In this document: positions 301-11,648 of the stretch, one piece after another
How positions within the stretch are numbered: the stretch's first letter is position 1
Layout: every line of letters starts with the position of its first letter
Origin: a virus
Taxonomy: Duplodnaviria > Heunggongvirae > Uroviricota > Caudoviricetes
Length of the DNA: 11,648 bases
IMG/VR virus record: IMGVR_UViG_2671180963_000004
Coordinates: 1-11,648 of that record
Reading direction: 5' to 3' (one strand)
Notes under the pieces: model-generated
Seen by the model: only the letters and a program-made list of their open reading frames with translations
What the model was told of the DNA's origin: nothing
Databases searched by the model: none
Program-made: the position numbers and the translations under genes

Positions 301-1179
301 TCACTCATCATCTTCTGTTTCGTACTCCACATCAGAAAGCCTGACCTCAAGCTCCAGGGACGTCGTGAAGCCGCTATTATTCAGAAAATGTGTCACCTTA
401 GTGATTGTCCAGTCCTGCTCGTCTATGACGCGCTTAAAGCCTGATACTTTGACCGGCGTTTCCGTGTAAATATCTGCCCGACCAGTAGCCAGACTGATGG
501 AGAACTCCGCAACGCCCCGTTGCAGCTTATCCCACTTCGCCTGAGCGGCGCGCATGGCCTGCGCTTTCGTGGCATATACCGTGGTCAGGGCAAAAACGTT
601 GTCAGCCTCACCTGCCATGTATTCACCTTCGCGCGCTTCCGGTACTTTTGGCGCTTTCTTCTGCGTGACCGGTTTCGCTTTCGGGTGCTCCAGTGCGCGC
701 AGGTGTTTCTCTTTCTTTTTGCGTTTCAGTTTTACCTTCTGCTTTTGTGGCTTCGGGTCTTTGGTGTGTAACCACTTTGCCGTTACGCCGGTATAGGCTC
801 CACGGTCAGCAATCGCAAAATGATGGCGGTCGCCGTCGCTGCGGGTTATGGTGACCTGCGGGATTTTTTTACCACTGGCCGTCACCCCCTGCCCCGCTTT
901 GAGAAACAACAATTTTCCCATTTTTACCGACACCTCACCGCCGTTGCGTTCAGCAAGACGGGTCAGGAATTTCGCATCGGACTCCTGCGACTGGTCGATG
1001 TGCGGGATTTTAATTCCGGCCAGTGACGGAGCGACACTGGCCTCCAGCCTGTTACGGGAGGCTATCGCCTCAACAATCGCACCGAGTGTGGTGTCATGCC
1101 AGGAGCCTTCCCGGCGGGAATTGAGCGTCCCGCGAAAATCTGCACTCCGGGCGCGGATGGTAATCCGGCCAGATGACCA
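301..1179 (-). pseudogene. D: Tail protein D (P2 gpD-like), 5'-truncated or frame-disrupted remnant
   Basis: Called ORF 301-933 begins at a GTG. Manual in-frame translation continues upstream as ...ITIRARSADFRGTLNSRREGSWHDTTLGAIVEAIASRNRLEASVAPSLAGIKIPHIDQSQESDAKFLTRLAERNGGEVSVKMGKLLFLKAGQG..., up to an in-frame TGA at 1180-1182. No plausible start codon with RBS; an N-terminal portion is missing. Confidence 0.7.
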
Positions 1180-1357
1180 TCAGCTCACGCTGGCTGAAAT
1201 TCTGGCGGTAGGCTTTCACCTCGGAAATGGTCTTACAGCCCCATGCGCTGATATAAAGGGAAATCAGTGTCGCCTTGCGTTCGGCGAGAATGGTTTCAAA
1301 GTCCAGCTCCTCGACCACATCCGGTGCGGGTAGCTGGTTCAGGTCGATAATCGGCAT
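1094..1357 (-). pseudogene. J: Baseplate protein J (P2 gpJ-like) N-terminal stub; only about the first 35 codons look J-like, remainder runs into D-derived DNA out of frame
   Basis: N-terminus MPIIDLNQLPAPDVVEELDFETILAERKATLISLY matches the P2 gpJ N-terminus as I recall it. The ORF is 87 codons, far shorter than a full baseplate J protein of roughly 300 aa. Sits 4 nt downstream of the W stop, as expected for the V-W-J order. Confidence 0.55.
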
Positions 1358-1361
1358 GGTT

Positions 1362-1709
1362 TCAACTCACAGGGATGGTTAACGAAAGTGGCTGGCCGGT
1401 GTCGTTGTGCTGGCCGGTTAACGTGACCGTCATTCGCCCGTCAAAACTGCGCGCCGTAGTGACGGATGACAGGGTGACGCGGGGTTCCCATTTCAGCACC
1501 GCCATGTAACAGGCGACCTTAATCTGCAACTCAAGCGCCTGGGTCTGCGGCTGGTCAATCATTGATGCCAGCAACGAGCCGTAATCACGACGCATCACCC
1601 GTGAGCCGACCGGTGTGCGCAGGATATCGCCGATACTCTGGCTGATATGCTCAAGGTCAGTGACAGTCAGGCCATCACTGCGATTCATTCCGAGATAACG
1701 TGCTGTCAT
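1362..1709 (-). CDS. W: Baseplate protein W (P2 gpW-like, 115 aa)
   Basis: Full-length 115-aa ORF, MTARYLGMNRSDGLTVTDLEHISQSIGDILRTPVGSRVMRRDYGSLLASMIDQPQT.... Its start overlaps the V stop by 4 nt (ATGA). Position V-W-J is syntenic with P2. Confidence 0.85.
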   Translation of the reverse strand: MTARYLGMNRSDGLTVTDLEHISQSIGDILRTPVGSRVMRRDYGSLLASMIDQPQTQALELQIKVACYMAVLKWEPRVTLSSVTTARSFDGRMTVTLTGQHNDTGQPLSLTIPVS

Positions 1710-2341
1710 AGAGGACTCCCGGTTGTGCCGCCGCTGTCTCCTGGGTGTTTGTGGGTATGCAGTACCTTACCGTTTGATGAGAGTTCACCGCCGGTGTGTT
1801 CAATGTTGCCGCGCATCGTCCCGCCCTTCTGCACTTCCAGCGTGCCGGTAATCAGCCTGTTGGTGCAGACCACCTCCGGTGTGTCCAGGGTGACGCGGGT
1901 TGATGCTTTCACCATGACCACCGGCACCGTGGCAGTAACAGAATCAGAAGCCGTCACGCTGACCGTTTTAATTCCGCTTACCGTGAGTGCACTGGTTTCG
2001 GGTTCATATTCAATCACCGCTCCGTCAGGGAAACGGATATGCAGGGCATCCGCCGACGCAGACGGCGCGGGGTTATCGCCGGAATAAATCCCCGGCAGAA
2101 CGAACGCCGTGTCGAGTTCACCGCCCACGGCCAGAATCAGCACCTGCTCCCCCACGGAAGGTGCCCACCATGTGCGCGAACGACCGGCACGATGGGTCAG
2201 CCACTGAAGCCAGTCAGTGCACATGCCGCCGGTCTGCACACGGCAGCGACCGGCGTTAAGGTCGGTTTCGACGACAAGGCCGGTGCGGATCATGTTGCGC
2301 AGTGCGCGCGCGAGTTCCTGAATATTTGCGAGAGTGTTCAT
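1706..2341 (-). CDS. V: Baseplate central spike protein V (P2 gpV-like, 211 aa)
   Basis: 211-aa ORF of the length expected for gpV. Lies between S and W in P2 order. Confidence 0.85.
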   Translation of the reverse strand: MNTLANIQELARALRNMIRTGLVVETDLNAGRCRVQTGGMCTDWLQWLTHRAGRSRTWWAPSVGEQVLILAVGGELDTAFVLPGIYSGDNPAPSASADALHIRFPDGAVIEYEPETSALTVSGIKTVSVTASDSVTATVPVVMVKASTRVTLDTPEVVCTNRLITGTLEVQKGGTMRGNIEHTGGELSSNGKVLHTHKHPGDSGGTTGSPL

Positions 2342-2407
2342 AACGGGAAGGATGCCGCCGGGTCATACCGGCGGCAATGTGACGATGAGGTGTCGGGAAT
2401 GGCACAA

Positions 2408-2860
2408 CTAACGGTCGAGGTGCGCCAGAATAATCTCTTCAATCATCTGCACATCCTCACCGGTAAAGCCGAGCAGGGGACGCGCCGGATAATCAATTTT
2501 CTTACCGTCTTTCCGGTTTTCTTCCGACAGACCGAACTGATGCACACTGGCGATTTTCGGTGACTTTCCGCCGTAAAATTCCATTGATGCCTGTTCCGGG
2601 CTGGCGCGGATATGCAAAAAACGACTGGTGATAAGTTTCGCAAACATTTTTCGCTTAACACGACCAGTCTTTTTTCTGGCGCTCTGCTGCTGGCGTGGCA
2701 CGTAGGGTGTGCCGTCCGGGGCTTTCTGTGCCATCACCCGACGCTGCTGACTCTGCCGCAGGCGCTTCGCCAGTTCGGCACTCAGTCGCCGACGCCCTGA
2801 CGGTGACAGCGATTCAATCAGTCCGGTCAGCCGGTCTTCAAAACGCTTAAACTCATTCAT
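2408..2860 (-). CDS. S: Tail completion protein S (P2 gpS-like, 150 aa)
   Basis: 150-aa ORF; start overlaps the upstream R-frame stop by 8 nt, as in a coupled late operon. Sits in S position upstream of V. Confidence 0.82.
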   Translation of the reverse strand: MNEFKRFEDRLTGLIESLSPSGRRRLSAELAKRLRQSQQRRVMAQKAPDGTPYVPRQQQSARKKTGRVKRKMFAKLITSRFLHIRASPEQASMEFYGGKSPKIASVHQFGLSEENRKDGKKIDYPARPLLGFTGEDVQMIEEIILAHLDR

Positions 2861-3059
2861 CCCACTTACTCACCAGTTCGCCATTGATATAAAGCTCCAT
2901 CGGGCGGGTGACCGGCTCCGGCGGCGGAGGTTCCGGGATATTCTTCACATGCAGCGCGCCGTCCACCTCACTGACCAGCGTGCGCTCGGTCAGCATCAGG
3001 CTGATGCTGATACAGGACAGGATTCGGGAAATAAACGGCTGGCTCGGCCAGGAGGTCAT
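2853..3059 (-). pseudogene. R: Tail completion protein R (P2 gpR-like), 3' fragment only (68 codons)
   Basis: 68-codon ORF ending 8 nt inside the S start, i.e. R position. Manual translation upstream of the ATG at 3057-3059 hits an in-frame stop at 3072-3074. Full-length gpR is roughly twice this size, so this is probably a 5'-truncated remnant. Confidence 0.55.
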
Positions 3060-3105
3060 CCGCTTTAAAAACTACTCACTGGACACTGACAACGGCTGAA
3101 CATCG

Positions 3106-3126
3106 CCGCCTGCGGGCGGCTTTTTT
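3106..3126 (+). terminator. Intrinsic terminator-like hairpin (GCCGCC-TGCG-GGCGGC followed by TTTTTT), plus-strand orientation
   Basis: Perfect 6-bp GC stem with 4-nt loop, followed directly by a T6 run. Oriented for rightward transcription, opposite to the flanking late genes. Consistent with a relic terminator from the far side of a deletion, possibly downstream of gene Q. Confidence 0.4.
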
Positions 3127-3268
3127 ACACCCCGTCATCACGCCCTCACACGCTCACCACCGCACAAAACACCCCGCAGACACACCAACGCCCCGGCGCA
3201 CAATCTAAACGCCATCAAGACGCGCTCAGACGCTGAAAAAATAAAATCAGCACCACCGCCAGCGCGCA

Positions 3269-3287
3269 GTGCTTTCCCCGCCTCGCC
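3269..3287 (-). other. cos: P2/P4-type cohesive end site (cos), 19 nt
   Basis: GTGCTTTCCCCGCCTCGCC at 3269-3287 is the exact reverse complement of the P2/P4 cohesive-end sequence GGCGAGGCGGGGAAAGCAC as I recall it. Orientation agrees with the reversed gene order. Confidence 0.8.
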
Positions 3288-3472
3288 CGCCCGCTTCATG
3301 GGGCATTTTTAATGCAGTTGCATGAACACTCCAAGAGCACACCATCGCTAGTGATAACTAACAATAAAAGCGACTTCTGACGCATGCAAATCCATGCACA
3401 TGATGGCATTTTTCATGATCTATGCGGTATGCTATCCGCTTCAATTTTTAACACTTGTTAAGGGAGCTAGAC

Positions 3473-4615
3473 ATGGACATTATTGATTTAAAATCTCAAC
3501 TAGAAAATGAAGATAATGCCAAGAAAAGAGCAGAGTTGCTTGCTCAGCTAGAGGTGATAAAGCAAAACGCTGAAGAGCAAATTCGTGCTGAGCAAAAGGA
3601 TGTGGATTTTGAGACCAAAGAATTTACCGTTGAGTTATTAGTTAATAAGTATCATAGCGGATTAGAGGATGATACTAACGAACTCTTTGTTCCTGATTAT
3701 CAAAGGGATTTTGTTTGGAGTGAAAAAAGACAATCAAGATTGATAGAGTCTTTGATTTTGGGTTTTCCTATACCATATATATTTACAGCAGATGTTCTCT
3801 CCGAAGATCCCGATTTAGATGGGCGAATTGAGATTGTTGATGGCTCACAGCGAGTTAGGACTATACACGCTTTTATCCAAAATGAATTAGTTTTACAAGA
3901 TCTGAAATCTTTAGACGCCCTTAATGGTTTCAAATTCCAAGATTTACCATTATCACGTCAACGTCGTTTCATGAGAATTCCTGTCCGCGTTATAGAATTG
4001 AGTTCTAAATGCAATGAAGAAACCCGTAGAGATCTTTTTGAACGTATTAACTCTGGCAGCGATATATTGAAAGATATGGAAGTCCGTAAAGGATCAGAAC
4101 TTGGTTCAACAAATTTATATACACAGGTTATTAAGCCATGCTCAACAATACCTAAATTTAAAGAATTAGCACCTTTATCTCAGACTAAAGAAAAACGAGA
4201 TGAACGGTTAGAATTTACATTAAGATTTTTTGCCTACTTAGATAAGTACAAGAACTTTGATCATTCCGTACGGGATTTTCTAAATGACTATATGTTAGAA
4301 AATCGAGATATAGACGAAACTAAACAAAACTCAATGAAACAAGAGTTTGCTAATGTTCTATCTTTTGTTGATAACTATTTCCCAGCAGGATTCAAGAAAA
4401 CTATTACTGCAAAATCTACACCTCGAGTTAGATTCGAATCTCTCGCTGTTGGCGCAGCACTTGCATTACGTGAAATCCCTGACCTTGTTCCCAAGAACTT
4501 GGATTGGCTAAGCTCAGAAGAATTCAAACGATTGACCACTTCAGACGGAGCTAATAGTCGCGTGAAGGTAATTGAACGAATTGAATATGTTCGGGATAAA
4601 TTATTAGAGGATTAA
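3473..4615 (+). CDS. DUF262 (ParB/GmrSD-N-terminal-like) domain protein, about 380 aa, no fused DUF1524/HNH nuclease domain
   Basis: Motifs DYQRDFVW (nt 3695-3718) and IVDGSQR (DGSQR at 3839-3853) are the hallmark QR..VW and DGQQR-type motifs of DUF262. Preferred start is ATG 3473, preceded by SD AGGGAG at 3461-3466; the ORF track uses TTG 3455. No (D/E)HxxP-type nuclease motif seen in the C-terminal half. AT-rich composition. Confidence 0.8.
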   Translation: MDIIDLKSQLENEDNAKKRAELLAQLEVIKQNAEEQIRAEQKDVDFETKEFTVELLVNKYHSGLEDDTNELFVPDYQRDFVWSEKRQSRLIESLILGFPIPYIFTADVLSEDPDLDGRIEIVDGSQRVRTIHAFIQNELVLQDLKSLDALNGFKFQDLPLSRQRRFMRIPVRVIELSSKCNEETRRDLFERINSGSDILKDMEVRKGSELGSTNLYTQVIKPCSTIPKFKELAPLSQTKEKRDERLEFTLRFFAYLDKYKNFDHSVRDFLNDYMLENRDIDETKQNSMKQEFANVLSFVDNYFPAGFKKTITAKSTPRVRFESLAVGAALALREIPDLVPKNLDWLSSEEFKRLTTSDGANSRVKVIERIEYVRDKLLED

Positions 4616-4616
4616 C

Positions 4617-5297
4617 ATGGATCGTTTTCGTGAGGATTTTGACGAAAGGTCAGGAGAGATCTTGGCCTATTTAGATCTTTTGAAATTTATTGAGTATGCC
4701 GGTGCAGAACTGATATCATCTGATGATAAAGAACATAAGTTCTCCATTACTGCTCAATCACGAAAAACTCTAAAGGGGGCAGTATATATTCTATTATATA
4801 ACCTCATTGAATCAACAATGAGAGAAGCTATCTGCCTTATTCATGAGACTATTTATGATAGAAACGTAGAATTTGACAAACTCAGGAAAAATATCAGGTC
4901 AGAAATATTAAAAAGATTAAAAAATGAATCTGTAAATATTGAAAGTTTAGTTAACCGTCTTACTAAAGGTATATCTTGCGGTATATCTTATGGCACTTTC
5001 AACAAAAAGAAAATATTCTCAGGAAATATTGATAGAGAGGAAATCAAAGAAAAATCGAAAATATATGGTTTTTCAACATATTCTGATTACACTCACACTA
5101 AACATGGTGAAAAATTAGCCACTGTCAAACAACATCGTAATGATTTATCTCATGGCAATGTATCATTTGCTGAGATTGGAAAAAATGTTTCATATCAGGA
5201 CTTAGAGAATATTTCATTAGAAGTAATCGCCTATCTTGATGCAATCGCGAATAATATAGAGCACTATATAAATAATAATGAATATTTAGAACAATAG
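4617..5297 (+). CDS. HEPN-like protein with Rx4H motif (putative RNase/nuclease effector), 226 aa
   Basis: ATG at 4617 is 1 nt after the upstream TAA (4613-4615), with SD-like GAGG at 4607-4610, indicating translational coupling. C-terminal region has KQHRNDLSHG, i.e. R174-x4-H179 (cgt 5136-5138, cat 5151-5153), the HEPN signature. Largely helical-looking, K/E-rich sequence. Pairing with a DUF262 protein resembles the MAE_28990/MAE_18760-type HEPN family naming as I recall it. Confidence 0.7.
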   Translation: MDRFREDFDERSGEILAYLDLLKFIEYAGAELISSDDKEHKFSITAQSRKTLKGAVYILLYNLIESTMREAICLIHETIYDRNVEFDKLRKNIRSEILKRLKNESVNIESLVNRLTKGISCGISYGTFNKKKIFSGNIDREEIKEKSKIYGFSTYSDYTHTKHGEKLATVKQHRNDLSHGNVSFAEIGKNVSYQDLENISLEVIAYLDAIANNIEHYINNNEYLEQ

Positions 5298-5303
5298 TAA
5301 TAA

Positions 5304-5320
5304 GGCCTGCAAAGCAGGCC
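5304..5320. terminator. Bidirectional terminator-like hairpin (GGCCTGC-AAA-GCAGGCC) between convergent genes
   Basis: 7-bp perfect stem with 3-nt loop in the 29-bp gap between the HEPN stop (5297) and the methyltransferase stop (5327). Flanked by T-rich sequence on plus (ATTTTAT) and A-rich on the other side. Confidence 0.5.
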
Positions 5321-5326
5321 ATTTTA

Positions 5327-6352
5327 TCATTCTAAATGGTTCTTGATTGATTGCCCAATTGCTTTTCCTAGTTCCACAGGAACAGCATTACCTATCATTT
5401 TCCCAATACTTCTTATAACAAACTTGTCTTTGTCTTCTACAAAGATATAATCCATCGGAAAAGTTTGCAATAAAGCAGCCTCTCTAAGAGAAATCGCTCT
5501 ATGCTGTTCTGGATGTCCAAAACGTCCATTTCCGAAACCATAACAAAGAGTTGTAATTGTTGGACTTGGCTTATCCCAAGACATGCGCCCATATACACTA
5601 GCATATCCTTTACCGCTAGATTTCATATGACAAGCAGCAATCAGCTCCTTCGGCCAGTCCTTCCATGTACCACCAGGAACAGAGTGTATAATTCTTTTTT
5701 TATTAATCGGATTTAATTTACTGGCTCTATGTAATATATCATTTGGATCTGTTTGGCCATCTTCTAACGGAGGAAGATTTCCTATTGCATCTCTAACTGT
5801 TTTCAAAATAACATCGTCACGTTTTACTAACTCAATCGCCCCCAATTTTGAAGCCAACAATACATGACGGGAACGGTTTTGTGGGATTCCATATTCGACA
5901 CAATCAACCTTCGACGCCCAAACATAATAGCCCAACTTTAACAATGAATTATAAAAATCATTATAAACTTTATGTTTAGTTACATCAGGAACGTTCTCCA
6001 TTGTTACGATTTCTGGAGATACTTCGCGAATTAAACGTTCGAACTCATAAAGAAGAGGCCATTTTTTATCATCAGCCTTATCTTTTCCTTGAGTATATTT
6101 TGAAAAAGGTTGGCAAGGTGCGCATCCTGCCAATACTTTTACAGACGCATCACCATAAAGCCTCAGCAGTTCCTCTTTTGTTACTTTAGCGATATCTTGC
6201 TCAATAAACTTAGATTTATTGTTTCTTTCATAGGGAAACCGACATTCCCCCTCAAGGTCTATGCCTGCAACGACATCAAGCCCCGCAAGCTGTAAACCAT
6301 GAGTTAATCCGCCAGCACCACAAAAAAGGTCTATCACCTTTACAGTCATCAT
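5327..6352 (-). CDS. DNA (cytosine-5)-methyltransferase, Dcm/M.HhaI-like, 341 aa
   Basis: Canonical C5-MTase motifs in order: motif I DLFCGAGG (AdoMet binding), motif IV GCAPCQPFS (catalytic PCQ, about 6110-6118), motif VI ENV (about 5990-5998), motif VIII QNRSRHVLLAS, and a C-terminal GNAVPV. SD-like GGAG upstream of the ATG at 6352. Confidence 0.9.
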   Translation of the reverse strand: MMTVKVIDLFCGAGGLTHGLQLAGLDVVAGIDLEGECRFPYERNNKSKFIEQDIAKVTKEELLRLYGDASVKVLAGCAPCQPFSKYTQGKDKADDKKWPLLYEFERLIREVSPEIVTMENVPDVTKHKVYNDFYNSLLKLGYYVWASKVDCVEYGIPQNRSRHVLLASKLGAIELVKRDDVILKTVRDAIGNLPPLEDGQTDPNDILHRASKLNPINKKRIIHSVPGGTWKDWPKELIAACHMKSSGKGYASVYGRMSWDKPSPTITTLCYGFGNGRFGHPEQHRAISLREAALLQTFPMDYIFVEDKDKFVIRSIGKMIGNAVPVELGKAIGQSIKNHLE

Positions 6353-6435
6353 TCACTCCAAATCTATACGATGCTCAGTATACATCCCTTTCTACAAAAT
6401 CTCGAGGCCTAACTTATAAACTCCTATTGATTGAG

Positions 6436-8535
6436 TTAACGCTTCACTGAGTTTGACTCTAATACTGTTGAGAATCCCGGCCACTCATCAGCGACCTGAT
6501 AAGTAAAATGTTTCCCGTCATAATTTACGGTCGCCCCACGCGCCAGCGCCTCAAGCTCCCATCGCTGCGGCCTGATACCGTTCTGAGCGAGGTCAACGCG
6601 GATACGGGTAATTTGCATTCGTTCCGACCGGGTCAGTCTGGCCGATGGTGCCATTTCATACTGTTTTAACGGGCTTCCGTTTCTCTGCTGACGATTTGGT
6701 GTTCTCAGCCCGTGTTTTAATGCGCCCCTGAGCGCCCTCACGACCTCCGGGTCATTCCATTCGATAACACCGTCATCAACCAGATTAAGCACTGCTGCGG
6801 CGTGCTCAGAAGGCGTGGGAGCCGGTAACGAAGTATCACCGCTGGTGAGCTTTCCACAGTTATTGACAGGACTCCGAGGCGCGGCGATGCCGCTTTTTAA
6901 AGTCAAAGGCTCAACGACCGGCACTTTCGGAACAATGCGCCAGTCCGTCGTTCTGGTGATATGAATATGACGCGCGCCGAGATGCGGCGCGTAAATGCCG
7001 ACCACTCTCTCGACTTCTTCCTCGTACTCGTTAACTTCATCCGACGGACTACGGGCGACCCTGACAGTCTGACAATCGCGCGGGACATTTGCCCCACCCT
7101 GCGCGCTGATATACAGCGCAAAATCACCACTGTCTGCGGCGGCGCGTGCAGCCTCGACGCGCTCGTCAAACTCATCAGCAATGCTGACGCCGCGAGGCAA
7201 TTTGCGTAGTTCACGGTAAGCCCCCATTGTCGGCAGGCCAACCGTTTTAAATTGCGGAATGCGCCACGTTGACGCCCATGCGGTAACAGCCGCGGCAGTA
7301 TCTTTCAGCGGTCTGCCGGTATCGTTATCGAGCTGCCCATCCAGTGCATAGCCGTCGATATTTTTTGAGATGTATTTCGCGATATACCCCGCAGCACCGC
7401 CCCGATTAAGATGTTTTGCCTGAAAACGGTTTCGCGCGGCTCCTCTTTCGTCGCCATCCTCTTTGAGCGCATAGCGACGCATGATTTCGATAATCTGGTT
7501 ACGCTGGCGTGGATTACAAAAAAACATCATATGCCAGTGCGGCGTTCCGTCGTGGTGTGGCTCGACGACTCGCAAACCGTAGACCTGTAAATCATTATCC
7601 TTGAATGCCGTGCGCATCAGGCTCCAGATACGGCAGAGATAACGCTGCGCATCCTTTGGATTAAATGCCTCATCGTTCCAGCCGTGATTTAGCTGGACGG
7701 TTTTACTTTCGCCTTTTCCAACCTGACGTGTCGGGTGATACTTTGACGGCGCGGTCAGCGTGATAAACATCCCCACATCACCCTCTGCGGCGGCGTAACG
7801 CTCAATACCGGCAATGGTGTTCATCAGCTCCATCCGGCGAATTTCAGGATTAGAAATACTGCCCATCACCTTACTGATAAGGTCGATGCGCTCGCCTGTT
7901 TCCCTGTTTTCGAGATCACACGATTTAAGAAATTCCAGATTTGCCTGGCGGCGTGCACGCACATCACGAATGGCATGTTTACTGGCATAAGGAGAACGGT
8001 CTTTATTGACCTCCCCGACAGCAATCAGTAACGCCTCATGCCAGCGCATACGCTGGCCTTTAAGCTGATGAGTCCACCACTCATCGTTAAACAGACGGGC
8101 AATGGCAGAATATGCCTGCCTCGTGGTCATCTGTCCTTTACGGTATTTTTTCCAGTAGAGAGGGGAAATATTGAAAGCACGTGCAGCGCCAGCAACATGA
8201 CCATAGAGGTGAGCCTGCGCCTCATCCGTAAACAGCGATTCTTTTTCGCCATGCGCATCCACCCATGCATCGCAGAGTTCCTCATACATCATGAAAAGCT
8301 GCGATGAGATACGGGCGGCAAACTTTTTCAGCTCCTTGTCATTCATTCCAGGCAGGCGCGCATAATGGTCACGCTCTGCCAGAAACAGCAACGACGCGTC
8401 GGTGTTCATTTCATGGCGCTGATTCACGCGCTCAATGCGCGGCCATAAGCGACGCTGAAAAGTGGATGTGAGGAAATAAAACCCGTGCAGCAGGTATTGG
8501 CGCATCACACTCTTCGCAAACCAGCGAAGAAACAC
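6436..8535 (-). CDS. A: Replication initiation protein A (P2 gpA-like rolling-circle HUH endonuclease)
   Basis: HUH motif in PHHDGTPHWHMMFF and tyrosine pair in GYIAKYISKN, typical of P2 A-family initiators. Called start 8533-8535 is a GTG with an in-frame stop 9 nt upstream (8545-8547); an in-frame ATG at 8503-8505 (MRQYLLHGFYF...) is an alternative start. Coding region overlaps the upstream zinc-finger ORF. Confidence 0.85.
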   Translation of the reverse strand: MFLRWFAKSVMRQYLLHGFYFLTSTFQRRLWPRIERVNQRHEMNTDASLLFLAERDHYARLPGMNDKELKKFAARISSQLFMMYEELCDAWVDAHGEKESLFTDEAQAHLYGHVAGAARAFNISPLYWKKYRKGQMTTRQAYSAIARLFNDEWWTHQLKGQRMRWHEALLIAVGEVNKDRSPYASKHAIRDVRARRQANLEFLKSCDLENRETGERIDLISKVMGSISNPEIRRMELMNTIAGIERYAAAEGDVGMFITLTAPSKYHPTRQVGKGESKTVQLNHGWNDEAFNPKDAQRYLCRIWSLMRTAFKDNDLQVYGLRVVEPHHDGTPHWHMMFFCNPRQRNQIIEIMRRYALKEDGDERGAARNRFQAKHLNRGGAAGYIAKYISKNIDGYALDGQLDNDTGRPLKDTAAAVTAWASTWRIPQFKTVGLPTMGAYRELRKLPRGVSIADEFDERVEAARAAADSGDFALYISAQGGANVPRDCQTVRVARSPSDEVNEYEEEVERVVGIYAPHLGARHIHITRTTDWRIVPKVPVVEPLTLKSGIAAPRSPVNNCGKLTSGDTSLPAPTPSEHAAAVLNLVDDGVIEWNDPEVVRALRGALKHGLRTPNRQQRNGSPLKQYEMAPSARLTRSERMQITRIRVDLAQNGIRPQRWELEALARGATVNYDGKHFTYQVADEWPGFSTVLESNSVKR

Positions 8536-8620
8536 CGCAATGTTTTACCCTTGCCGCGTTAATCTGGCGCTCCAGTAATTCAGCCTGTTGTTCCTGAATA
8601 AAATCTACGTTGTCCGGCAT
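8432..8620 (-). CDS. Small TraR/DksA-like zinc-finger protein (possibly degenerate), 62 aa
   Basis: Contains CEECDAPIPAAR, resembling the C-x2-C-G-x-P-I-P-x-x-RR core of TraR-family phage zinc fingers. The expected second CxxC pair is absent in all three frames; the tail is VLFPHIHFSASLMAAH. Overlaps the A start region by about 70-100 nt. Confidence 0.45.
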   Translation of the reverse strand: MPDNVDFIQEQQAELLERQINAARVKHCGVSSLVCEECDAPIPAARVLFPHIHFSASLMAAH

Positions 8621-8622
8621 TA

Positions 8623-8925
8623 TCAGCTCCTTTTATCGTTAAGTTTCCTGGATACATCAGCGCAATAACTGGCGAGTTCTGTCGTTAATTTTGTCAGTTC
8701 ATCCACTGAGGAAATTTGCTTGTGGAACACAGCGCGTTTAACAAGTAAATTGACCACATCAGACAGGAGGTTTAATTCATTCTGATAAATCGCGATAACA
8801 GATTCAGTTATGTCGCGTTTTTCTTTATCAAGACAAAGTTGAATAAGAGACAAATCACCATTTTCCATAACGGCGATTTTTAAGGCGTTATTCAGTAATA
8901 CAACTGAATGAGAACAGGACATCAA
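8623..8925 (-). CDS. Hypothetical small early protein (100 aa), in the B-to-A interval
   Basis: ORF in the same orientation as the early operon; start overlaps the upstream ORF stop by 4 nt (8922-8925). No recognisable motif. Confidence 0.5.
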
Positions 8926-9146
8926 AGCACCTCCCCGCGAGACAATCCGATATTGTGAAATTTTTCCGACTCCTGACTGAGCAGCTCGACTATCTCCACG
9001 CGGGATAACTCCGCCTTTGTGATATGGCGAATCATGGCGTCAAGATGAGAAGAAAAGCGCGTCGCAGCGTCGGCCTGTGCTTCGGTTCTGGCCTGTTGCA
9101 GCAGTAATGCGTATTTACCGCACTGATTTTCAGAAACTGTATGCAT
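8922..9146 (-). CDS. Hypothetical small early protein (74 aa), downstream of B
   Basis: ORF in early-operon orientation, coupled by overlap to the next ORF. No recognisable motif. Confidence 0.5.
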
Positions 9147-9209
9147 GACTTTCTCCAGGCAAAAAGAAGCCCCGCACGATTAAGTGCGTTAAAAACTCTG
9201 GTTAATTAT

Positions 9210-9710
9210 TTAATGCAAATATTGCTCTGGTTTTACCGACGTCAGAATTGTCGGTGCATACTCAAACAGACTGAATAGTTCACGTAATGCACGGAATAAA
9301 GCATCACGCCAGTAACATGACTCTTCATTAATTCGCCAGTATGGCTGATTGAATTCTTTTTCAGTCAATCCGGCATGCATAAATAAAGTACGACGCTGAC
9401 TGACTGTTAAAAAACTAATATATGCATACTCACTTGCGCCAACCTGACGGCGTTTTGAGAATGCCCCACGCAATTCATCAATTGCACAAACCAGCCGTTC
9501 ACGTTCGACGTCGTTCATTTCTTCAAAACGCATCGTTGCGTGACGTTGTTTTAACTGCGCATGAAAGCAAACTGTTAGCCGTTCGCGCTCCATCATCTGA
9601 TTATAATAATCACATGTATCCTGCCAGCGAGGGACGGCAAGATGCTTACCAATTATCCGGCGCATAGCTGCTGGCTGTTTTTCGACGAGATTGAGCGTCA
9701 TCACTGTCAT
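9210..9710 (-). CDS. B: Replication protein B (P2 gpB-like, 166 aa, helicase-loader-type early protein)
   Basis: 166-aa ORF of the length and position (downstream of cox and a small ORF, upstream of A) expected for P2 B. Confidence 0.75.
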   Translation of the reverse strand: MTVMTLNLVEKQPAAMRRIIGKHLAVPRWQDTCDYYNQMMERERLTVCFHAQLKQRHATMRFEEMNDVERERLVCAIDELRGAFSKRRQVGASEYAYISFLTVSQRRTLFMHAGLTEKEFNQPYWRINEESCYWRDALFRALRELFSLFEYAPTILTSVKPEQYLH

Positions 9711-9877
9711 TTCCAGACCCTCCGGCTTTTCAGAAAGGTCAGAGCCTTTTTTAACGGACTCTGTTTTTTGGTGCGGATAATGATTCCCTTACGCCCCTTA
9801 CCGTGGGTGATGGTGAAGTCAATCGCCCTGGGGCTTTCGTTACGCAGTAACTGAGCAATACAACGCGGTTCACTCAT
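9707..9877 (-). CDS. Small early ORF between cox and B (orf78-like position), about 56 aa
   Basis: ORF track starts at ATG 9902-9904, which would overlap the cox 3' end by 25 nt. In-frame ATG at 9875-9877 lies 2 nt after the cox stop and is preferred. Stop overlaps the B start (ATGA-type). Confidence 0.45.
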   Translation of the reverse strand: MSEPRCIAQLLRNESPRAIDFTITHGKGRKGIIIRTKKQSPLKKALTFLKSRRVWK

Positions 9878-9879
9878 AA

Positions 9880-10152
9880 TCACAACCCCATCCACAAAAG
9901 CCATGCATCACGCTGTTCAACTGGTCGGTTATAAAACGCCTCTCGTACAGCGCGATTAAACTCTGGAATGAAAACCCACTTCTCACCGACACGAGCGTTC
10001 GGCTTACTTGGATCACGAAGCTCAATAACTGGCAATTTATTCTCTTTTACCATCTTGACTACAGCCGTTTCTGGCTTACCAAGTAACTCTGCAAACTTAA
10101 CCGTATGTACCGCATCAATCGGGTACTGAATCACATAGTCATTGACTTCCAT
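9880..10152 (-). CDS. cox: Cox (P2-type excisionase/early-promoter regulator), 90 aa
   Basis: 90-aa ORF, first gene of the minus-strand early operon and divergent from C. Region KLPVIELRDPSKPNARVGEKWVFIPEFN...RDAWLLWMGL resembles P2 Cox as I recall it. Confidence 0.78.
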   Translation of the reverse strand: MEVNDYVIQYPIDAVHTVKFAELLGKPETAVVKMVKENKLPVIELRDPSKPNARVGEKWVFIPEFNRAVREAFYNRPVEQRDAWLLWMGL

Positions 10153-10197
10153 TGATTAGCCCTTTTTGCTTTCGTGTTACCCTTATTAGATCCAGCC

Positions 10198-10227
10198 CCT
10201 TCTAGGTCGCCCCTGTCCTTTCTAGGG
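10198..10227. repeat. Direct repeats CCTTCTAGG / CCTTTCTAGG (10198-10206 and 10218-10227): second candidate operator or Cox-box pair
   Basis: Near-identical 9-10-bp direct repeats spaced about 21 bp apart (two helical turns) in the cox-C intergenic region. Confidence 0.3.
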
Positions 10228-10248
10228 ACTGGCTAACACACTCAAAAG

Positions 10249-10292
10249 GTCACCAATACACAACCTTTTGACGGGAATATAAGTCACCAATA
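10249..10292. repeat. Direct repeats GTCACCAATA (10249-10258 and 10283-10292) flanking the candidate Pe -10: candidate repressor (C) or Cox operator half-sites
   Basis: Exact 10-bp direct repeat, 34 bp apart, one copy inside the Pe spacer and one just downstream of the predicted start site. Confidence 0.35.
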
Positions 10293-10304
10293 GGTTACTG
10301 TCAA
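10276..10304 (-). promoter_or_regulatory. Candidate early promoter Pe (minus strand): -35 TTGACA (10304-10299), 17-nt spacer, -10 TATATT (10281-10276)
   Basis: Near-consensus hexamers with 17-bp spacing, read on the minus strand. Lies on the C-proximal side of the cox-C intergenic region, consistent with the face-to-face Pe/Pc arrangement described for P2. Confidence 0.5.
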
Positions 10305-10598
10305 ATGCAGACATTCGAAAAACTGAAAGCGATTAGGAAAGCAGAAGGCTTAACACAGGCGAAATTCAGCGAAATTAGCGGGATAGCTCTAGGAACAGTC
10401 AAAAATTACGAAAGTGGGCATAAAGACCCTGGTCTCAGCATCGTTATGCGAGTCACAAATACGCCTTTATTTAAAAAATATACGCTCTGGTTAATGACTG
10501 GTGATACGTCACCACAAGCTGGTCAGATCGCGCCGGCTCTCGCACACATTGGGCAAAAACCAACAGAATCAGACCGCTCCGAAAAACAGACTGGTTAA
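10305..10598 (+). CDS. C: Immunity repressor C (P2 C-like, 97 aa, HTH)
   Basis: N-terminal helix-turn-helix region LTQAKFSEISGIALGTVKNYESG. C-terminal KYTLWLMTGDTSPQAGQIAPALAHIGQ closely resembles P2 C as I recall it. Divergent from cox and upstream of int. Confidence 0.82.
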   Translation: MQTFEKLKAIRKAEGLTQAKFSEISGIALGTVKNYESGHKDPGLSIVMRVTNTPLFKKYTLWLMTGDTSPQAGQIAPALAHIGQKPTESDRSEKQTG

Positions 10599-10667
10599 CA
10601 CTCTATAAACATTACATTTTCACCATTTGTTACCAAGATGGTGAATACAGCGTCAGAGGGCTTTCTT

Positions 10668-11648
10668 ATGTCAATTAAGAAGCTCGATGATGGACGCTAT
10701 GAAGTGGACATTAGACCTCGCGGTCGCGACGGAAAACGCATCCGCAGGAAATTTGAAAGAAAAGCTGAGGCTGTAGCATTTGAGCGATACACAATCGCCT
10801 ACGCCAGCCAGAAAGAATGGGCAGGTCAGCGAGCAGATCGCAGAACTTTGAGTGAGTTGCTGGACATCTGGTGGAAATATCACGGGCAAAACCACGAGCA
10901 TGGAACAAAAGAGTTTAATCATCTGCTCAAAACCATCAGCGGCATAGGTGATATACCAGTGAGCCGGATGAGCAAAAGAGCTTTGATGGATTATCGTTCC
11001 ATGCGACTACGAAATGGTATCAGTGCCGCAACGATAAACCGTGACATGTACCGATTATCCGGCATGTTCACAAAATTAATTCAATTGGATGAATTTTCCG
11101 GGCAACACCCAATTCACGGACTGCCGCCACTGGCGGAGGCCAACCCTGAAATGACGTTCCTGGAAAAAGCAGAAATCGAAAAACTGTTAAATGTTTTGGA
11201 TGGTGATGACTTACTTGTCGCACTTTTATGTCTGAGCACTGGAGGAAGATGGACGGAAGTTGCCACGCTAAAACCAGCACAGATTACAAATTGCAGGGTT
11301 ACCTTCCTGAAAACCAAAAACGGTAAAAAGCGAACCGTGCCGATTTCTGAGGAACTGGAGAAAAAAGTTAAAGAGGAGGCCAGCGCTAAATTATTCAAAG
11401 TTGATTATGAGAAGTTTTGCGGGATTTTACGCAGAGTGAAGCCAGATATACCACCCAATCAGGCAACCCACATCCTGCGGCATACATTCGCAAGCCATTT
11501 CATGATGAATGGGGGCAATATAATCGCACTGCAACAGATTCTGGGACATGCGAGCATTCAGCAGACGATGGCCTATGCGCACCTTGCGCCTGACTACCTG
11601 CAAAATGCCGTCGCGCTGAATCCTCTAAAAGGCGGAGTGACGTTATAA
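10668..11648 (+). CDS. int: Tyrosine integrase (P2 Int-like), about 326 aa
   Basis: MSIKKLDDGRYEVDIRP... matches the P2 Int N-terminus as I recall it. C-terminal catalytic region HILRHTFASHFMMNGGNIIALQQILGHASIQQTMAYAHL carries the H-x-x-R box and Tyr of tyrosine recombinases. Preferred start is ATG 10668 with SD AGAGGG at 10655-10660; the ORF track starts at 10638. Stop is at 11646-11648, the window edge. Confidence 0.9.
   Translation: MSIKKLDDGRYEVDIRPRGRDGKRIRRKFERKAEAVAFERYTIAYASQKEWAGQRADRRTLSELLDIWWKYHGQNHEHGTKEFNHLLKTISGIGDIPVSRMSKRALMDYRSMRLRNGISAATINRDMYRLSGMFTKLIQLDEFSGQHPIHGLPPLAEANPEMTFLEKAEIEKLLNVLDGDDLLVALLCLSTGGRWTEVATLKPAQITNCRVTFLKTKNGKKRTVPISEELEKKVKEEASAKLFKVDYEKFCGILRRVKPDIPPNQATHILRHTFASHFMMNGGNIIALQQILGHASIQQTMAYAHLAPDYLQNAVALNPLKGGVTL

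What the first reader, a model, noticed from the sequence alone, without database searches (positions are those of the whole stretch)
3060..3126. Second deletion junction: R fragment abutting a relic terminator on the cos-proximal side
The R ORF has only 68 codons and an in-frame stop just upstream (3072-3074). Within about 50 bp there is a strong plus-strand terminator hairpin (3106-3126) oriented opposite to the late genes, then cos about 140 bp further on. This fits loss of K, Y, X, L, M, N, O, P and most or all of Q, with the hairpin being the former terminator of the leftward Q-P operon.
Basis: inference. Interest (0 to 1): 0.35.

Follow-up and report, generated by a model that had tools for sequence, protein, structure and literature searches.

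The report
Deletion scar in decayed P2-like prophage
This is an ordinary deletion scar in a decaying P2-type prophage of E. coli: an 8.5-kb loss of the head, packaging and lysis genes joined the tail end of gene R to the tail end of the portal gene Q, leaving Q's terminator and the cos site intact.

Summary

This is a real deletion junction in a P2-like prophage, and the hairpin is base-for-base P2's annotated tQ, the terminator of the leftward P-Q operon.

Three details are wrong:
- **Breakpoint position.** It lies at a shared TA at 3011/3012, inside the supposed R ORF, not in 3060-3126.
- **The ORF is a chimera.** Only its last 52 codons are R (residues 104-155). The first 16 are antisense of Q, so the ATG is accidental.
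- **R does not touch the terminator.** The last 28 codons of Q lie between them.

Against an intact, 100%-identical prophage (E. coli NH-21) the deletion is 8,489 bp. It removes Q codons 1-316, P, O, N, M, L, X, Y, K, lysA, lysB, lysC and R codons 1-103.

It is one of four microhomology deletions in the window. The same junction occurs in several independent E. coli assemblies, always between cpxP and fieF, so it is not an artefact. The finding is ordinary and of low interest.

The parts
2853..3012 (-). R' : the 3' remnant of tail-completion gene R (codons 104-155 plus stop, and the last base of codon 103).
   Evidence: It is 100% identical to NH-21 prophage L004 19836-19995. At the protein level, 51 of 52 residues match P2 gpR residues 104-155. 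Homology to R of P2-like phages stops at window 3012.
3011..3012 (.). The deletion breakpoint: a TA dinucleotide present at both parental sites (2-bp microhomology), joining R to Q. 8,489 bp of the parent are missing here.
   Evidence: The blastn blocks 1254-3012 and 3011-8489 overlap by 2 bp. The junction was reconstructed against both parental flanks. Alignments to P2 and Wphi agree.
2990..3010 (.). A perfect 21-bp palindrome native to R (TCAGCATCAG-G-CTGATGCTGA on the plus strand), directly abutting the breakpoint. It is a candidate trigger of the deletion (inferred).
   Evidence: It is inverted repeat I7. It is one of only two perfect palindromes with arms of at least 10 nt in the 30.8-kb parent prophage, and the only one next to any of the eight breakpoints.
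2853..3059 (-). A chimeric 68-codon ORF: 16 codons from the antisense strand of Q' (including an accidental ATG) fused to 52 codons of R. It is deposited as CTX56832.1 'tail protein'. It is most likely not expressed and not functional.
   Evidence: It gives no Pfam hit, whereas full-length R hits PF06891 over residues 1-131. No sigma-70-like promoter was found in 2300-3500. The exact sequence is on record in 7-10 contigs.
3011..3099 (+). Q' : the 3' remnant of the portal gene Q (last 28 codons QDRIREINGWLGQEVIRFKNYSLDTDNG plus stop TGA at 3097-3099).
   Evidence: It is 100% identical to L004 11260-11348, the end of the annotated portal CDS. It matches P2 gpQ residues 316-343. It aligns to P2 nt 187-275.
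3105..3126 (+). tQ, the intrinsic terminator of the leftward P-Q late operon. It is structurally intact but is now a relic, because its promoter was deleted.
   Evidence: It is identical to P2 nt 160-181, annotated as tQ. The terminator scan gives 6 G-C pairs, a loop of 4 and a T6 tail. It is invariant across P2, Wphi and the window.
3127..3268 (.). The non-coding left end of the phage genome, between tQ and cos.
   Evidence: It aligns to P2 and Wphi nt 20-159.
3269..3287 (-). cos: the 19-nt cohesive-end sequence GGCGAGGCGGGGAAAGCAC (read on the minus strand), intact.
   Evidence: It is identical to P2 nt 1-19, annotated as cosL.

Best explanation
The window is a P2-like (Peduovirus) prophage integrated between cpxP and fieF of E. 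coli. It has lost 19.1 kb through four separate deletions.

The finding concerns the largest one, 8,489 bp. It fused the 3' third of tail-completion gene R (minus strand) to the last 89 nt of portal gene Q (plus strand) at a shared TA (window 3011/3012). It removed Q codons 1-316, P, the divergent P/O late promoters, O, N, M, L, X, Y, K, lysA, lysB, lysC and R codons 1-103.

The rest of the region follows from this:
- The '68-codon R ORF' is an accidental chimera of 16 antisense-Q codons and 52 R codons.
- The stop at 3072-3074 is simply antisense Q sequence.
- The hairpin at 3105-3126 is Q's own terminator tQ, left behind with the intact cos site 143 bp downstream.

Consequences (inferred). 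The prophage can no longer make heads, package DNA or lyse the cell. R'-S has lost its promoter. tQ has no operon left to terminate. The cos site, the defence genes beside it (a DUF262/GmrSD_N protein, a HEPN nuclease and a Dcm methylase) and the immunity and integration genes remain.

How the deletion arose (inferred). It looks like RecA-independent illegitimate recombination, either replication slippage or end joining at microhomology. A perfect 21-bp palindrome in R that abuts the breakpoint probably promoted it, together with a 17/30 in-register similarity between the two parental flanks.

The confidence given applies to the deletion mapping and the identity of the parts. The formation mechanism is about 0.5.
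For: **Mapping**
- blastn of the window against the intact NH-21 prophage gives five collinear blocks. Four are 100% identical and one has a single mismatch. Overlaps at the four junctions are 2, 2, 2 and 3 bp.
- Junction 3 is R/Q at 3011-3012, with 8,489 bp missing. The NH-21 annotation lists the genes that lie between.
- Independent mapping to P2 and Wphi gives the same breakpoint: P2 nt 275 joined to about nt 8763.

**Identity of the parts**
- R' matches gpR residues 104-155.
- Q' matches the gpQ C-terminus.
- tQ and cosL follow the P2 RefSeq annotation and are sequence-identical.
- The terminator scan finds the hairpin.

**Reality of the junction**
- The exact chimeric ORF is on 7-10 contigs from one NCBI assembly (GCA_001283625.2, 100% identical to the window over all 11,648 bp) and several independent SRA assemblies. 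It always lies between cpxP and fieF.
- One form (L006) carries this junction but still has the 599 bp that are missing from the early region of the window. Decay was therefore stepwise.
- cpxP-fieF is a documented P2-like integration site: Wphi1 in E. coli W (PMC3032704).

**Mechanism**
- For a random blunt join, at least 2 bp of ambiguity at all four junctions has a chance of about 6e-4.
- The flank on the retained-R side matches the corresponding Q-side flank at 17 of 30 positions, p about 2e-4 before correction for testing eight flanks.
- The R-side breakpoint abuts one of only two perfect palindromes with arms of at least 10 nt in the 30.8-kb parent.
Against: - Nothing contradicts the deletion mapping.
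- The mechanistic part is circumstantial. The palindrome association was noticed after the fact; my rough estimate of the chance is about 0.005.
- The R 3' region is intact in 1561 of 1569 matching complete E. coli genome records, so the palindrome is not a recurrent deletion hotspot.
- tQ is only a 'putative' terminator in the P2 record, and no expression data were available.
- NH-21 is a proxy for the ancestor, not the ancestor itself.
Confidence: 0.94

Rival explanations
1. R is natively short (about 68 aa) in this phage lineage, and there is no deletion at this site.
For: The ORF has an ATG and is annotated as 'tail protein' in GenBank.
Against: - An otherwise 100%-identical prophage has a 155-aa R and 8.5 kb of head and lysis genes between R and Q.
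- The first 16 codons of the ORF are antisense Q.
- Pfam GpR covers residues 1-131 of the full protein and does not detect the 68-aa ORF.
- 1561 of 1569 matching complete-genome records have the full region.
Confidence: 0.01
2. The junction is an assembly artefact: a chimeric or collapsed contig.
For: - The junction is absent from 5,426 complete E. coli genomes.
- It is also absent from the viral, species-representative genome and metagenome contig collections.
Against: - The identical chimeric ORF, with identical neighbours, occurs in one NCBI assembly and at least four independently assembled SRA runs.
- These include a sister form that differs by the 599-bp early-region deletion, which a random misassembly would not reproduce.
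Confidence: 0.01
3. The deletion was made by a dedicated enzyme: adjacent deletion driven by an IS element, the prophage's Hin/Cin-type invertase, or Int/Cox.
For: - The parent prophage encodes a 'recombinase family protein' near the tail-fibre genes, and an integrase.
- IS21-family elements occur in related prophages.
Against: - No IS sequence or inverted terminal repeat lies at the junction. R and Q sequences abut directly.
- The breakpoints lie inside the coding sequences of R and Q, far from the invertible segment and from att.
- The four junctions share no common motif, only 2-3 bp of microhomology (AA, TA, TA, GCA).
Confidence: 0.02
4. The scar is not neutral decay. The deletion was selected because it disarms the prophage by removing the lysis and head genes, while keeping the cos-proximal defence island, immunity and integration genes. 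This would be domestication.
For: - All four deletions spare int, C, cox, B, the Dcm, HEPN and DUF262 genes and cos. Together they remove or truncate every head and lysis gene and most tail genes.
- Retained sequence is 100% identical to an intact prophage apart from one mismatch.
- Defective P2-like elements with conserved defence genes are described in PMC13586616.
Against: - Intact but useless S, V and W genes, and fragments of J, FI and D, remain. That pattern fits haphazard loss.
- The later 599-bp deletion truncates replication gene A.
- There is no comparative or experimental test of selection here, and only 7-10 contigs carry the junction.
Confidence: 0.12

Closest known systems
Bacteriophage P2 left end (NC_001895 nt 1-275: cosL, tQ, 3' end of Q)
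   Same: It is collinear with the window, with only scattered substitutions. The 19-nt cos sequence and the 22-nt tQ hairpin with its T-run are identical. The last 28 codons of Q are conserved apart from the final residue.
   Different: In P2, Q continues upstream for another 316 codons, followed by P. Here the sequence switches to R at P2 nt 275.
P2 / Wphi gpR tail completion protein (PF06891, 155 aa)
   Same: Residues 104-155 are retained, 51 of 52 identical to P2, and R' overlaps the start of S as in P2.
   Different: The first 103 residues, which make up most of the Pfam domain (model matches residues 1-131), are missing. The remnant does not score against PF06891.
Intact P2-like prophage at cpxP-fieF in E. 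coli NH-21 (NZ_CP148034.1) and CFSAN064036; Wphi1 of E. coli W uses the same site
   Same: The integration site is the same, and every retained segment is 100% identical apart from one mismatch.
   Different: The window lacks 4,868, 5,181, 8,489 and 599 bp relative to it.
Defective or cryptic P2-like prophages, for example the ogr-D' remnant of E. coli K-12, the P2*B prophage of E. coli B, and defective P2 elements that keep their defence genes
   Same: These are P2-type prophages inactivated by deletion that persist in the chromosome, sometimes with a conserved defence hotspot next to cos (PMC3032704; PMC13586616).
   Different: This allele, an R/Q junction at TA, was not found in any complete E. 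coli genome or phage record searched.
Microhomology-mediated illegitimate deletion in E. coli: short-homology slippage, palindrome-associated deletion endpoints, alternative end joining (from my own knowledge of the literature)
   Same: There are 2-3 bp of shared bases at all four junctions, and one endpoint lies at the base of a perfect palindrome.
   Different: The pathway was not tested, and the palindrome link rests on a single junction.

Membership tests
P2 tQ intrinsic terminator of the P-Q operon | A G+C-rich hairpin followed by a T-run, on the strand that encodes Q, immediately downstream of the Q stop codon. | tested here: met
   The stem at 3105-3120 has 6 G-C pairs and is followed by T6. 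It starts 6 nt after the Q stop codon at 3097-3099, on the same strand.
P2 tQ intrinsic terminator of the P-Q operon | Sequence homology and matching position relative to the annotated P2 feature (nt 160-181, complement). | tested here: met
   All 22 nt are identical, in a collinear alignment from cos to Q.
P2 tQ intrinsic terminator of the P-Q operon | It actually terminates transcription. | not testable with these tools
   The P2 record itself calls it 'putative'. There are no RNA data.
gpR tail completion protein (PF06891) | The full GpR domain (model positions 1-133, protein residues about 1-131). | tested here: not met
   The 68-aa ORF gives no Pfam hit, and only residues 104-155 are present. 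It is a gene fragment, not a family member in any functional sense.
P2-type cos site | The 19-nt cohesive-end sequence with its flanking left-end and right-end sequences. | tested here: met
   The 19 nt at 3269-3287 are identical to P2 cosL. The 256 bp of left-end flank are collinear with P2 and Wphi. The right-end flank is 100% identical to the intact NH-21 prophage.
P2-type cos site | It is cut and packaged by P2-type terminase. | not testable with these tools
   The element encodes no terminase, because P and M are deleted.
Defective (cryptic) P2-like prophage | P2-type gene order and integration at a bacterial att site, with essential morphogenesis or lysis genes missing. | tested here: met
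   The order is int-C-cox-B-A ... cos ... R'-S-V-W-J'-FI'-D'-ogr, between cpxP and fieF. Q, P, O, N, M, L, X, Y and K are absent.
Microhomology-mediated illegitimate deletion | A few shared bases at the two parental breakpoints, with one copy retained, no long homology and no mobile-element sequence. | tested here: met
   TA is shared at this junction. All four junctions share 2-3 bp, with a chance of about 6e-4.
Microhomology-mediated illegitimate deletion | Dependence on a specific pathway (slippage, SbcCD cleavage of a hairpin, or RecBCD/LigA end joining). | not testable with these tools
   The only support is circumstantial: a palindrome at the breakpoint.

The most novel reading that the evidence does not exclude
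The remnant may not be junk. The form that still has an intact A gene (L006, about 12.2 kb) keeps int, C, cox, B, A with its origin, ogr and a complete cos site, next to a DUF262-HEPN-Dcm defence island. It is about the size of satellite P4. It could act as a helper-dependent, cos-packaged mobilisable defence island that a superinfecting P2-like phage of different immunity excises and packages. Alternatively, the orphan chromosomal cos could act as a decoy for incoming P2-type terminase. On either reading the R/Q deletion endpoint was tolerated or selected because it stops 256 bp short of cos.
Probability: 0.04. Interest if true: 0.5.

Novelty: already known. Interest (0 to 1): 0.1.

Why it matters
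It matters mostly for annotation.
- The 68-aa 'tail protein' in GenBank (CTX56832.1) is a fusion artefact of R and antisense Q.
- The hairpin and cos are standard P2 left-end features.
- The region should be annotated as a pseudogene junction in a defective prophage.

More broadly, the window gives a clean, base-resolved example of stepwise prophage decay. It shows four microhomology deletions and almost no point mutations relative to an intact twin, and an intermediate form still exists. The defence cargo next to cos is kept. That pattern is already described for defective P2-like elements (PMC13586616). No new biology is implied.

Tried and rejected
1. **Pfam on the two junction ORFs.** Neither the 68-aa ORF nor the 63-aa plus-strand ORF gave a hit. 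Identity had to be shown by direct comparison with P2 gpR and gpQ.
2. **Exact junction sequence in public collections.** A 31-mer found nothing in IMG/VR viral contigs or the GTDB species-representative genomes, and a 22-mer found nothing in JGI metagenome contigs. No complete E. coli genome has R' and Q' contiguous. The carriers were found only through an exact-protein look-up of the chimeric ORF.
3. **Rfam over the whole window.** No RNA family reached its gathering threshold.
4. **The R palindrome as a recurrent deletion hotspot.** Rejected: 1561 of 1569 matching complete-genome records carry the whole region.
5. **IS-, invertase- or integrase-mediated deletion.** Rejected from the junction sequences.
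6. **The minus-strand terminator-like sites at 3051-3039 and 3265-3250.** These are weak, with 3-4 G-C pairs. With four sites found against 1.3 ± 1.4 expected, I treat them as chance matches.
7. **The 53-aa ORF across cos (3138-3299, minus strand).** Its only hit is a sub-threshold VacA2 match, so I treat it as spurious.
8. **Whole-stretch fold of 3085-3135.** The z-score is only -1.28. The case for the terminator rests on its anatomy and its homology to tQ, not on this score.

Full report
**What is in the sequence**

- ORF 2853-3059 on the minus strand has 68 codons.
- Translating 2853-3080 on the minus strand gives SE*FLKRMTSWPSQPFISRILSCISISLMLTERTLV...SKWDE*. The in-frame stop is therefore at 3072-3074.
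- On the plus strand, GCCGCC-TGCG-GGCGGC (3105-3120) followed by TTTTTT (3121-3126) is the best terminator-like site in 2300-3500.
- The 19-nt P2 cohesive end lies at 3269-3287, 143 bp beyond the T-run.

**What the region is homologous to**

- Megablast against phage records shows that window 2400-3012 is 97-98% identical to the S-R region of P2-like phages, including Wphi, fiAA91-ss and P2 isolates. In every record the homology stops at window 3012.
- A second search shows that homology to the other half starts at window 3011 in every record. It covers the 3' end of the portal gene and runs to the genome end.
- The P2 RefSeq record annotates cosL at 1-19, 'tQ; putative rho-independent terminator for P operon' at 160-181 (complement), Q at 187-1221 (complement) and R at 8455-8922.
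- Multiple alignments with P2 and Wphi place the switch exactly. Read on the minus strand, the window follows the P2 left end up to ...ATCCTGTCCTGTA (P2 nt 275) and then continues TCAGCATCAGCCTGATGCTGACC..., which is R from about P2 nt 8763.
- The hairpin plus T-run is identical to P2 nt 160-181.

**An intact twin and the exact size of the deletion**

- Searching the whole window against complete E. coli genomes found two strains, NH-21 and CFSAN064036, whose prophage is 100% identical to window 3011-11648.
- The NH-21 prophage lies between cpxP and fieF. It has the full P2 gene set: int, C, cox, B, A, Dcm, HEPN, DUF262, [cos], Q, P, O, N, M, L, X, Y, K, lysA, lysB, lysC, R (155 aa), S, V, W, J, I, H..., FI, FII, E, T, U, D, ogr.
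- blastn of the window against this locus gives five collinear blocks:

| Window | NH-21 locus (L004) | Content |
|---|---|---|
| 1-1163 | 32896-31734 | ogr, 3' part of D |
| 1162-1255 | 26867-26774 | 94 bp of FI |
| 1254-3012 | 21594-19836 | 5' part of J, W, V, S, 3' part of R |
| 3011-8489 | 11348-5870 | 3' end of Q, tQ, cos, defence genes, A |
| 8487-11648 | 5273-2112 | early genes, C, int |

- Four blocks are 100% identical and the first has one mismatch.
- The four gaps are 4,868, 5,181, 8,489 and 599 bp. They sum to 19,137 bp, exactly the difference between the 30,785-bp parent and the 11,648-bp window.

**The junction in question**

It is the 8,489-bp gap. The two parental sequences share TA at the breakpoint (window 3011-3012).

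- *R side.* Window 3011-2853 encodes I104-E155 of gpR plus the stop. 51 of 52 residues match P2.
- *Q side.* Window 3013-3099 encodes the last 28 residues of gpQ plus the stop.
- *The 68-codon ORF.* It is a chimera. Codons 1-16 (3059-3012) are the antisense of Q', so the ATG at 3059 and the stop at 3072-3074 are accidents of that antisense sequence. Codons 17-68 are R.
- *Domain check.* Full-length R from P2 and from NH-21 matches Pfam PF06891 over residues 1-131. The 68-aa ORF gives no hit.
- *Genes lost.* Q codons 1-316, P, the P/O promoter region, O, N, M, L, X, Y, K, lysA, lysB, lysC and R codons 1-103.

'Most of Q' is right, and 'all of Q' is not.

**Is it real?**

- The junction is absent from 5,426 complete E. 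coli genomes.
- It is also absent from exact-match scans of IMG/VR, GTDB representative genomes and JGI metagenomes.
- The exact chimeric protein, however, is on record as CTX56832.1 'tail protein [Escherichia coli]' on 7-10 contigs.
- GCA_001283625.2 contig CYEL01000013.1 is 100% identical to the whole window and is probably its source.
- Four Logan assemblies of separate SRA runs carry the same junction, in every case with the element between cpxP and fieF.
- One form (L006, with four similar places not shown) has the R/Q, J/FI and FI/D junctions but still has the 599 bp. These encode a TraR-like protein, a DUF5405 protein and the 5' end of A, giving a 765-aa A protein.
- The early-region deletion is therefore the most recent event, and decay was stepwise. 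An assembly artefact is excluded.
- cpxP-fieF is a known P2-like attachment site: prophage Wphi1 of E. coli W (PMC3032704).

**How it probably arose (inference)**

- All four junctions have 2-3 shared bases (AA, TA, TA, GCA). For a random blunt join, the chance of at least 2 ambiguous bases is 0.156 per junction, or about 6e-4 for all four.
- At the R/Q junction the 30 nt on the retained-R side match the corresponding Q-side flank at 17 of 30 positions in register (binomial p about 2e-4, uncorrected for eight flanks tested).
- The R-side breakpoint directly abuts a perfect 21-bp palindrome, TCAGCATCAG-N-CTGATGCTGA (window 2990-3010).
- The 30.8-kb parent contains only two perfect palindromes with arms of at least 10 nt and loops of at most 6 nt. 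No other breakpoint lies near a hairpin with arms of at least 8 nt.
- This fits classical illegitimate deletion: replication slippage or template switching at a hairpin, or hairpin cleavage followed by microhomology end joining.
The site is also not a recurrent hotspot, since 1561 of 1569 matching complete-genome records have the whole R 3' region.
- No IS element, recombinase site or long repeat lies at the junction.

**What it does now (inference)**

- The late promoters PP and PO lie in the deleted segment (P2 nt 3016-3127). Q' therefore has no promoter and tQ has no operon to terminate.
- R'-S has lost its promoter too. No sigma-70-like promoter is predicted in 2300-3500.
- tQ is still structurally perfect. 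It could stop stray plus-strand transcription from running into cos and the defence genes that start at 3455.
- The hairpin is not a terminator on the minus strand, because no T-run follows it there.
- The element cannot form heads, package DNA or lyse. It keeps int, C, cox, B, a truncated A, a Dcm methylase, a DUF262/GmrSD_N protein with a HEPN partner, cos, and intact S, V, W and ogr.
- Defective P2-like elements with conserved defence genes next to cos have been described (PMC13586616).

**Verdict**

- Every component (gpR, gpQ, tQ, cos) is an annotated P2 feature, and the process is ordinary prophage decay. Novelty is nil and interest is low.
- The only non-trivial residual idea is that the cos-bearing remnant, which is about the size of P4, could be mobilised by a helper phage. 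It is untested and unlikely. The later truncation of A argues against it in this window, and so, from my own knowledge, does the cis-acting nature of P2 A.

Noticed in passing
window 1162-1163, 1254-1255 and 8487-8489: There are three further deletion junctions relative to the intact NH-21 prophage. D'/FI' shares AA, with 4,868 bp lost. FI'/J' shares TA, with 5,181 bp lost. The traR-like gene/A' junction shares GCA, with 599 bp lost. A 94-bp island of the sheath gene FI (1162-1255) survives between the first two.
   Followed up: partly
L006 (SRR7184330) 3841-6624, compared with window 8432-8620 and 6436-8535: A sister form of the remnant still has the 599 bp, with an intact TraR-like protein, DUF5405 protein and 765-aa A protein. 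The early-region deletion is therefore the latest step. In the window, A has lost its first ~81 codons and its native start.
   Followed up: partly
window 3455-5297 (+) and 5327-6352 (-): Defence cargo sits at the cos-proximal P2 hotspot. It comprises a DUF262/GmrSD_N protein (best PADLOC matches NsnA at 2e-54 and PD-T4-2_A at 5e-35), a MAE_28990-type HEPN nuclease and a C-5 cytosine methyltransferase. All three are 100% identical to those of the intact prophage.
   Followed up: partly
window 1 and 11648: The window starts exactly at the ogr stop codon and ends exactly at the int stop codon (L004 32896 and 2112). It looks like a provirus call trimmed at gene boundaries, so attL and attR lie outside it.
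   Followed up: no
NZ_CM128592-type hits; H185 NZ_CM129848.1 1807168-1807209: In at least one other complete E. coli genome only the last 42 bp of the R-S query match, and the features under the match are S and a 'terminase large subunit domain-containing protein'. This suggests an independent head and lysis module deletion, P joined to S, in another lineage.
   Followed up: no
L004 23000-24283 (NH-21 prophage): The 'intact' reference prophage itself has a broken tail-fibre gene H, annotated as two partial pseudogenes. It may therefore also be defective.
   Followed up: no
window 2908-3099 (+): A 63-codon plus-strand ORF reads antisense R in frame into the last 28 codons of Q. It is a second accidental chimera created by the same junction.
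   Followed up: yes
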